64,000 nucleotides of DNA from Okamejei kenojei (lineage: Eukaryota). The notes below the pieces were generated by a model. It had not been told where the DNA came from, did not search any database, and saw only the letters and a list, made by a program, of their open reading frames with translations. Numbering within the stretch: position 1 is the first letter of the stretch; each line of letters starts with the position of its first letter. Both the position numbers and the translations under genes were made by a program. Location: contig CM069131.1 of assembly GCA_035221665.1 (NCBI GenBank), positions 49,042,001 through 49,106,000 of the forward strand. The letters run 5' to 3'. Of this stretch, positions 14,522 through 14,559 are shown one piece after another.

Positions 14522-14559
14522 TAGGTCTGAAGAAGGGTCCCGACCCGAAACGTCACCTA
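14522..14559 (+). ncRNA. Minimal type I hammerhead ribozyme motif in a Penelope-linked short repeat
   Basis: TAGGT-CTGAAGA-A-GGGTC-cc-GACCC-GAAA-CG-TC-ACCTA: conserved core CUGANGA/GAAA/UH, stem II, and stem I TAGGT/ACCTA. Confidence 0.65.

What the first reader, a model, noticed from the sequence alone, without database searches (positions are those of the whole stretch)
14522..14559. Intact minimal hammerhead ribozyme motif 250 nt into intron 1, on the transcribed strand
Seen: TAGGT CTGAAGA A GGGTC cc GACCC GAAA CG TC ACCTA, i.e. the CUGANGA core, an extra A, stem II, GAAA, a GUC cleavage triplet and a 5-bp stem I (TAGGT/ACCTA). Stem III is reduced to the palindrome ACGT. Established: Penelope-like elements carry such minimal type I hammerheads, thought to cleave mainly as dimers. 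Inference: this is the best-preserved copy in the window and is transcribed within PDE6 pre-mRNA, so it could cleave the intron if it pairs with another sense copy (e.g. 15943, 22205).
Basis: partly seen in the sequence, partly recalled or inferred. Interest (0 to 1): 0.7.

Follow-up and report, generated by a model that had tools for sequence, protein, structure and literature searches.

The report
Stranded Penelope hammerhead in PDE6 intron
This is a real but ordinary leftover end-piece of a very common jumping gene (a Penelope-like element) carrying that element's known stripped-down self-cutting RNA motif; its unusually complete first stem likely comes by chance from the host DNA it landed in, and it probably does not cut the rod PDE6 transcript.

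Summary
The motif is present exactly as described, 250 nt into intron 1 of a rod PDE6 gene, and is beyond chance. It is the 5' tip of a 97-bp solo pseudo-LTR fragment of a Penelope-like element (PLE), flanked by a 10-bp direct repeat. Full-length RT+GIY-YIG elements carry the same motif in both pLTRs. The genome holds 1,063 exact copies of the 28-nt core and roughly 10^6 fragments by extrapolation. The parent's stem I has only 2 contiguous pairs; this copy's 5-bp stem is completed by target-site DNA at chance frequency (3 of 31). Core positions decay like neighbouring non-ribozyme positions (6.0% vs 6.3%). Cutting at 14554 needs a partner's intact core; 0 of 8 other sense copies has one, including 15943 and 22205, and an antisense copy lies 1.65 kb downstream. 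Published minimal hammerheads are inactive as monomers and weak as dimers. Verdict: known kind, most likely inert here. The scan noted this family before, in other pieces of this genome and in other genomes.

The parts
13807..14271 (+). Exon 1 of a rod PDE6 catalytic subunit gene (closest solved chain PDE6B); host gene
   Evidence: E 7.8e-53 to beta, 6.5e-50 to alpha; donor GT at 14272
14517..14526 (+). Left copy of a 10-bp direct repeat, read as the target-site duplication; supplies TAG of the stem I 5' arm (the final GT is also element sequence)
   Evidence: identical to 14622-14631; repeats of 10 bp or more in 3 of 30 real loci vs 1 of 868 swapped-flank controls
14525..14621 (+). Solo 5'-truncated PLE pLTR fragment, 97 bp, ending 95 nt after C3 like the 3' pLTR of full-length copy L176
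   Evidence: 75/92 identity to the L176 pLTR, E 2e-22
14522..14526 (+). Stem I 5' arm (UAGGU), 3 of 5 bases host-derived
   Evidence: sequence; native upstream is CAGT
14527..14534 (+). Core C3-A9 (CUGAAGA) plus the extra A between 9 and 10.1
   Evidence: features listed in PMC4209133
14535..14546 (+). Stem II, 4 bp with G10.1-C11.1, tetraloop CCCG
   Evidence: paired in 27-29 of 29 native copies per pair
14547..14554 (+). G12-A15.1, palindrome ACGU (no monomeric helix III), GUC triplet; putative scissile bond 14554/14555
14555..14559 (+). Stem I 3' arm (ACCUA), element-derived
14622..14631 (+). Right copy of the 10-bp direct repeat
15943..16029 (+). Sense family copy with U4C and ATAT palindrome; cannot complete an active site on 14554
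16207..16296 (-). Antisense family copy; predicted to pair with the 14522-14615 RNA (-138 kcal/mol vs -26 and -41 for control stretches) or with the 15943 copy (-102)
22196..22283 (+). Sense family copy with destroyed core; keeps ACGUC and ACCCA, so it could only be a substrate half
23073..23160 (+). Sense family copy with G12A and broken palindrome

Best explanation
It is the ribozyme-bearing tip of a solo, 5'-truncated pseudo-LTR of an endonuclease-positive Penelope-like retrotransposon, likely inserted by reverse transcription of uncut element RNA, and probably inert in the PDE6 pre-mRNA. Shown: full-length elements have this motif in both pLTRs around an RT+GIY-YIG ORF; this copy spans -2 to +95 relative to C3 and is flanked by a 10-bp direct repeat; most core-bearing copies begin within a few bases ahead of the core. 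Inferred: reverse transcription started at the nearer of two internal start sites (3' ends cluster at about +80-99 and +120-139) and stopped just ahead of the core, so host target DNA became the 5' arm of stem I and happened to complete 5 bp. Inferred: with no helix III, no sense partner with an intact core, poor folding in longer context and an antisense copy nearby, the motif would rarely reach the active fold; it is decaying neutrally and is simply among the less mutated copies.
For: 28 of the 30 best GIY-YIG matches have the motif 70-123 nt after the stop codon on the same strand. L176 and L177 are pLTR-ORF-pLTR units with a 1197-codon open frame; L176 has a 3955-bp period and Pfam RVT_1 and GIY-YIG hits below the curated cut-offs. 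1,063 exact 28-mers, 0 for the reversed control; 229 copies in 600 kb of evenly spaced genome samples. Non-CpG core positions differ from the majority in 70 of 1166 cells (6.0%) vs 219 of 3460 (6.3%) at monomorphic downstream positions, Fisher p=0.73; G12 is A in 27 of 119 copies, as expected for a CpG. Native stem I: pairs 1-2 formed in 29 and 28 of 29, pairs 3-4 in 0 of 29. Of 186 exact GT-core-ACCTA copies, 31 have G at -3 and 3 have TAGGT (p=0.28 against TA frequency); 5 of 30 examined reach 5 bp or more (p=0.43). No peak of 5' ends at the cleavage site (8 of 229 at +26..30 vs 11, 9, 5 in neighbouring bins). Stem I probability falls to 0.08 or less in contexts of 181 nt or more. Literature: single min-HHR showed no cleavage and dimers low activity (PMC4209133); the Anolis PLE hammerhead cleaves only with the element's protein, unprocessed RNA is the main template, and no RNA-seq reads ended at the site (PMC11167929); 1 of 9 Xenopus dimers cleaved (bioRxiv 10.64898/2026.07.22.740005).
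Against: No cleavage assay or raw RNA reads were available, so inertness is inferred. In isolation the 38-mer folds into stems I and II (MFE -9.1; stem I probabilities 0.67-1.0; 0.59-0.77 in an 81-nt context), so the fold can exist transiently during transcription. The copy is tied for least diverged among the copies compared (2 differences from the majority over 84 nt; range 2-13 in 11 other copies) although contigs of two related organisms run from exon 1 into it, so it is old. Stems of 4 bp or more were slightly over-represented among G(-3) copies (20 of 30, p=0.05). No core column is polymorphic between subfamilies (0 of 10 vs 13 of 43 downstream, p=0.10), compatible with selection on the motif in the active elements. 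This copy's core could in principle cut the 22196 copy.
Confidence: 0.86

Rival explanations
1. Host-completed ribozyme with low-level activity: the flank-supplied 5-bp stem I makes this copy more competent than its parent, and PLE protein or RNA chaperones would let it cleave (as a dimer of two transcripts, or as the enzyme half against the 22196 copy), nicking intron 1 at a low rate without host benefit.
For: All consensus core positions and stems I and II are intact; the 38-mer folds correctly alone; ACGU can pair with ACGU of the 22196 copy and UAGGU with ACCCA at 4 of 5 positions; protein-assisted cleavage is reported for the Anolis element (PMC11167929); long open PLE frames exist in this genome.
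Against: The designed double-hammerhead homodimer scores -16.5 kcal/mol vs -18.2 for two monomers and -28.0 for an alternative dimer (no tertiary terms); the partner is 7.7 kb away and an antisense copy lies between; PLE expression in retina is unknown.
Confidence: 0.09
2. Domesticated intronic ribozyme that regulates PDE6 splicing or RNA level, like the RECK and C10orf118 hammerheads of amniotes.
For: Sense orientation, close to the first donor, intact core, insertion apparently shared with two related organisms. Precedent for domestication is discussed in PMC6155905 (passages) and PMC3088659 (passages).
Against: No helix III and no Rfam match; at about 5% divergence (45-46 differences in 846 nt) an unchanged 38-mer needs no selection; tens of thousands of intact cores exist (21 in 600 kb; 60,000-147,000 extrapolated), so intact sense intronic copies are expected by chance; another copy has a 7-bp stem I (L207).
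Confidence: 0.03
3. In this family the motif is kept mainly as an internal promoter or template boundary (initiator-like TCAGTC ahead of the core, ACGT about 30 nt downstream), not as a ribozyme; this copy lacks TCA and would be a dead promoter stub.
For: 99 of 119 core-bearing copies lack native sequence upstream by my rough classes; the parent's stem I is only 2 contiguous bp and the L176 motif does not fold into stems I or II in ViennaRNA; D. virilis Penelope has an internal promoter with a downstream element RGACGTGY (PMC2377424 passages). The initiator consensus is recalled.
Against: Junctions are spread over 0 to -5, not one base; a splice-acceptor-like CAG after a pyrimidine tract or an RT stall would fit equally; in D. 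virilis the hammerhead lies after an intron that starts 46 nt from the start site; core, stem II and palindrome match the hammerhead consensus fully.
Confidence: 0.2

Closest known systems
Minimal type I hammerheads (min-HHR) of metazoan Penelope-like elements (Cervera and De la Pena 2014, PMC4209133; main text parts 1-2 of 4 read, figures and supplements not seen)
   Same: Consensus core, extra base between 9 and 10.1, G10.1-C11.1, palindromic 15.2-16.2, no helix III, short helix I, location in both pLTRs, mostly found as single motifs from truncated elements.
   Different: Helix II is 4 bp (7-8 bp in the Schistosoma families); the parent's helix I has 2 contiguous pairs, and this copy's 5 bp come from the target site; intact cores here extrapolate to 60,000-147,000 against about 9,000 (Xenopus) and 4,000 (coelacanth) in that paper, with different descriptors.
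EN+ PLEs, Neptune or Nematis clade (Craig et al. 2021, PMC8557442; passages) and Poseidon_Ac (Frangieh et al. 2024, PMC11167929; parts 1-2 of 4)
   Same: pLTR-ORF-pLTR layout, RT then C-x4-CxxC linker then GIY-YIG, inverted truncated copies, two 3' end classes about 35-40 nt apart (tail), no insertion peak at the ribozyme cut site.
   Different: The start codon lies 134 nt after the cut site in L176, whereas in PAc the ORF starts at stem II; no tree was built, so the clade rests on the linker motif alone.
Non-LTR retrozymes (bioRxiv 10.64898/2026.07.22.740005; parts 1-3 of 5)
   Same: Short non-coding PLE pLTR derivatives with a type I hammerhead, present in a chondrichthyan genome in that survey.
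   Different: This is a monomer, not a tandem of ribozyme-bearing units; the 54-bp arrays seen in this genome repeat only the part after the ribozyme.
Conserved intronic hammerheads of RECK and C10orf118/CTCL (PMC3088659, PMC6155905; passages)
   Same: Type I, sense strand, in an intron, likely retroelement origin.
   Different: Those cleave in vitro and are conserved across mammals or amniotes; this one lacks helix III and belongs to a very large, neutrally decaying family.

Membership tests
PLE minimal hammerhead (min-HHR) | Core C3 U4 G5 A6 N7 G8 A9, G12 A13 A14 A15.1, U16.1 H17 | tested here: met
   consensus as listed in PMC3088659
PLE minimal hammerhead (min-HHR) | Extra nucleotide between 9 and 10.1; G10.1-C11.1 pair; palindromic 15.2-16.2 | tested here: met
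   A14534; G14535-C14546; CG at 14551-14552; features from PMC4209133
PLE minimal hammerhead (min-HHR) | Helix I of 4-5 bp | tested here: met
   5 bp in this copy, but host-completed; the parent has 2 contiguous pairs, third pair 0 of 29
PLE minimal hammerhead (min-HHR) | Helix II length within the published descriptor | tested here: inconclusive
   4 bp here; text gives 7-8 bp for Schistosoma families and a relaxed descriptor shown only in a figure I could not see
PLE minimal hammerhead (min-HHR) | Located in both pLTRs of an RT+GIY-YIG element | tested here: met
PLE minimal hammerhead (min-HHR) | Self-cleavage as a dimer or with protein help | not testable with these tools
   needs an assay; energy model does not favour the double hammerhead
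Neptune/Nematis-clade EN+ PLE | CX2-5CxxC linker between RT and C-terminal GIY-YIG | tested here: met
   C-x4-CxxC seen in L176/L177 ORFs; criterion from PMC8557442 passages
Neptune/Nematis-clade EN+ PLE | RT phylogeny places it in Neptune | not tested
   no reference PLE proteins on hand
Non-LTR retrozyme | Two or more consecutive tandem units each with a complete hammerhead | tested here: not met
   single unit with unique flanks
Domesticated intronic hammerhead (RECK/C10orf118 type) | Monomer-competent fold with helix III, matched by Rfam hammerhead models | tested here: not met
   no helix III; no Rfam hammerhead hit
Domesticated intronic hammerhead (RECK/C10orf118 type) | Conservation above intron background across distant species | tested here: inconclusive
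   present in contigs of two relatives about 5% diverged; letter-level differences inside the motif were not among the rows shown

The most novel reading that the evidence does not exclude
A ribozyme lottery: because this family's copies end just ahead of the core, each insertion draws the 5' arm of stem I from random host DNA. About 3% of intact copies thereby gain a stem of 5 bp or more that the parent lacks, giving on the order of a hundred or more host-completed hammerheads, and this old, intact, sense-strand copy in rod PDE6 intron 1 is one that actually cleaves pre-mRNA when helped by PLE protein: an early step on the road to domesticated intronic ribozymes.
Probability: 0.06. Interest if true: 0.65.

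Novelty: new member of a known kind. Interest (0 to 1): 0.2.

Why it matters
As it stands it matters little: it is one more copy of a described motif. It is useful as a caution that a perfect-looking stem I in a solo PLE fragment can be made by the insertion site. If host-completed copies did cleave, the genome would offer a large natural series for testing how transposon ribozymes become intronic regulators, and a strand-bias test inside genes would measure their cost.

Tried and rejected
Rfam, whole window and local, gave no hammerhead match; not counted against the motif, because it lacks helix III. The 141-nt region folds no better than shuffles (z -0.14). Sequencing-run search: no RNA holder listed, so no evidence on expression or cleavage; one search used contigs only, which cannot show RNA ends. 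One contig from a run guessed to be RNA stops at the exon 1 donor, a weak hint only. Letter-level conservation of the 38 nt in relatives stayed open. A hidden subfamily with a repaired TAGGT stem I was rejected: 3 exact copies with unrelated flanks. A spliced form that would complete stem I (as in D. virilis) was looked for by eye in the L176 pLTR; no donor giving the needed arm was seen, and this was not tested further. Insertion from ribozyme-cut RNA was rejected (no 5' end peak at +28). No two-sided compensatory change was seen in stem II among 29 native copies, only U-A/U-G and A/G opposite U. Two translations were in the wrong frame (also 12). Paper searches: Penelope+skate+Neptune gave 0 papers; none of the 15 listed papers contained 'hammerhead ribozyme'; these do not cover subscription journals, Repbase or supplements, where this family may be described. 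A sequence look-up of earlier scan notes gave nothing.

Full report
Observation. Exon 1 at 13807-14271 is a rod PDE6 catalytic subunit, closest to the beta chain (181.5 bits vs 172.1 for alpha; subunit not resolved further). The donor is at 14272, so the motif sits 250 nt into intron 1 on the sense strand. Recalled short motifs place further exons from about 30,073 onward. A full minimal-hammerhead descriptor finds this site alone in the window; 300 shuffles gave 2 hits and none with stem I of 4 bp or more. Stem II is 4 bp with a tetraloop, not 5 bp with a 2-nt loop. That the organism is a skate or ray is my recollection of the repeat and comes from no call of mine.

What it belongs to. The motif starts a dispersed repeat with about 16-20 copies or fragments in the window. 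The exact 28-nt core occurs 1,063 times in the genome (535 +, 528 -; reversed control 0) and a 29-mer downstream 30,797 times, partly in 54-bp arrays. In 60 evenly spaced 10-kb samples, a profile of the part after the ribozyme found 230 hits; one edge artefact was dropped, leaving 229, about 1.05 million when extrapolated. Intact cores by descriptor were 21 in 600 kb (60,000-147,000 extrapolated). Of the 30 best GIY-YIG matches (150 scored of 126,068 candidates), 28 carry the motif 70-123 nt after the stop codon; the two misses include the window's own fragment. Of 16 long-frame loci fetched, L176 and L177 have a 1197-codon open frame with the motif in both flanks. In L176 the period is 3955 bp and the ATG is 134 nt after the cut site; Pfam gives RVT_1 and GIY-YIG below curated cut-offs, with a C-x4-CxxC linker as described for Neptune and Nematis (PMC8557442 passages). 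The window copy matches that pLTR at 75 of 92 bases.

Anatomy of this insertion. The element runs from 14525 to 14621 and is flanked by an exact 10-bp repeat at 14517-14526 and 14622-14631. Repeats of 10 bp or more flank 3 of 30 loci (this one included) against 1 of 868 swapped controls, so I read it as a target-site duplication, noting that most copies show none. The native sequence ahead of the core is CAGT; in 29 native 3' pLTRs the first two stem I pairs form (29 and 28), the next two never do (0 and 0), and two more distal pairs form again (27 and 28). TAG of the 5' arm is therefore host DNA. Among 186 exact GT-core-ACCTA copies, 31 have G at -3 and 3 have TAGGT, as expected from TA frequency (p=0.28). 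Of 30 of those 31 examined, 5 reach 5 bp or more (p=0.43) and 20 reach 4 bp or more (p=0.05; several are junctions with an inverted copy). One locus, L207, has 7 bp.

How such copies arise (inferred). Of 119 sampled copies with a recognisable core, my rough classes gave 57 with unique flank, 42 with an inverted copy upstream and 20 with native upstream sequence; several 'unique' rows look native, so that class is overstated. Junctions are spread over 0 to -5. 3' ends cluster at +80-99 and +120-139, matching the two internal RT start sites and 30-40 bp tail described for the Anolis element (PMC11167929, parts 1-2 read). There is no peak of 5' ends at the cut site, so templates were uncut. A transcription start, a splice acceptor or an RT stall could explain the boundary; I could not separate them.

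Selection. In 119 of the 229 copies whose alignment starts ahead of C3 and reaches +50, non-CpG core cells differ from the majority in 70 of 1166 vs 219 of 3460 at monomorphic downstream columns (p=0.73); CpG columns, including catalytic G12, differ in 212 of 925. The choice of alignable copies favours intact cores, yet no excess appears. No core column has a second allele of 10% or more (0 of 10 vs 13 of 43; p=0.10), which is compatible with, but does not show, selection in source elements. Contigs from two related organisms run from exon 1 to 14554 with 45-46 differences in 846 nt, so the insertion is shared and old; at that distance an unchanged 38-mer needs no constraint, and differences inside the motif were not among the rows shown. 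The copy differs from its subfamily majority at 2 of 84 positions; 11 other copies differ at 2-13.

Could it cut? Alone, the 38-mer forms stems I and II, and still does in 81 nt, but the probabilities fall to 0.13 or less in contexts of 181-801 nt (equilibrium model). There is no helix III. In a double hammerhead the site at 14554 would be cut by a partner's core and 5' arm (my inference from the topology). None of 8 other sense copies tabulated has a consensus core; 15943 is U4C with ATAT, and 22196 has lost CUGANGA and A13. U4C is reported to lower activity considerably in vitro (PMC3088659 passages). The reverse case, this core acting on the 22196 copy 7.7 kb away, is geometrically possible. 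The antisense copy at 16207-16296 can pair with the whole element (-138 kcal/mol vs -26 and -41 for controls), though the nearer 15943 copy competes (-102). Published data: no monomer activity and low dimer activity (PMC4209133), protein-dependent cleavage and no in vivo ends, 1 of 9 dimers active. I have no RNA evidence either way.

Comparison and verdict. It works like, and is a member of, the PLE minimal hammerheads by every sequence feature I could test; catalysis is untested. It fails the tests for a retrozyme and for a RECK-type domesticated ribozyme. My searches found no paper on this family, but they miss subscription journals, Repbase and supplements. Earlier unchecked notes of this scan describe the same family and the same 5' boundary in other pieces of this genome and in other genomes; I read them after my analyses. 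Interest 0.2.

Noticed in passing
window 29,930-30,243: PDE6 exon 2 looks interrupted: TPIMNG at 30073 is followed by about 100 nt of C-rich sequence before AVIMATNKLNG...EDED and a GT donor. Probably an assembly error, possibly an insertion.
   Followed up: no
window 335-900: 3' fragment of the same PLE with a GIY-YIG frame, truncated before its hammerhead.
   Followed up: partly
window 14273-14281 and 14522-14530: The intron 1 donor region shares TAGGTCTGA with the motif's start, so the donor GUAGGU could also pair with ACCUAU at 14555-14560; likely chance.
   Followed up: no
L031, L042, L047, L051, L060 (near the left end of contig C1): 54-bp tandem arrays (4-8 units) of the part after the ribozyme, usually behind one core-bearing head; the first 100 listed matches on C1 are all on one strand.
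   Followed up: partly
L176:2408-2455 and L176:2603-2626: A long pyrimidine tract ending in CAG directly precedes the core, and a donor-like AAG|GTATG overlaps the start codon; splicing between them would skip the ORF. Untested.
   Followed up: no
L176, L177 and other loci: A young PLE subfamily with long open frames (up to 1197 codons) and near-identical RT segments, suggesting recent activity.
   Followed up: partly
L207 (G000:C9:56620562-56620599): A copy with intact core, a 7-bp stem I and a 10-bp flanking repeat: a better test substrate than the window copy.
   Followed up: no
window 31298-31493, 54367-54540, 63866-63988: Head-to-head inverted pairs of the same element, the fold-back form typical of PLE insertions.
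   Followed up: partly
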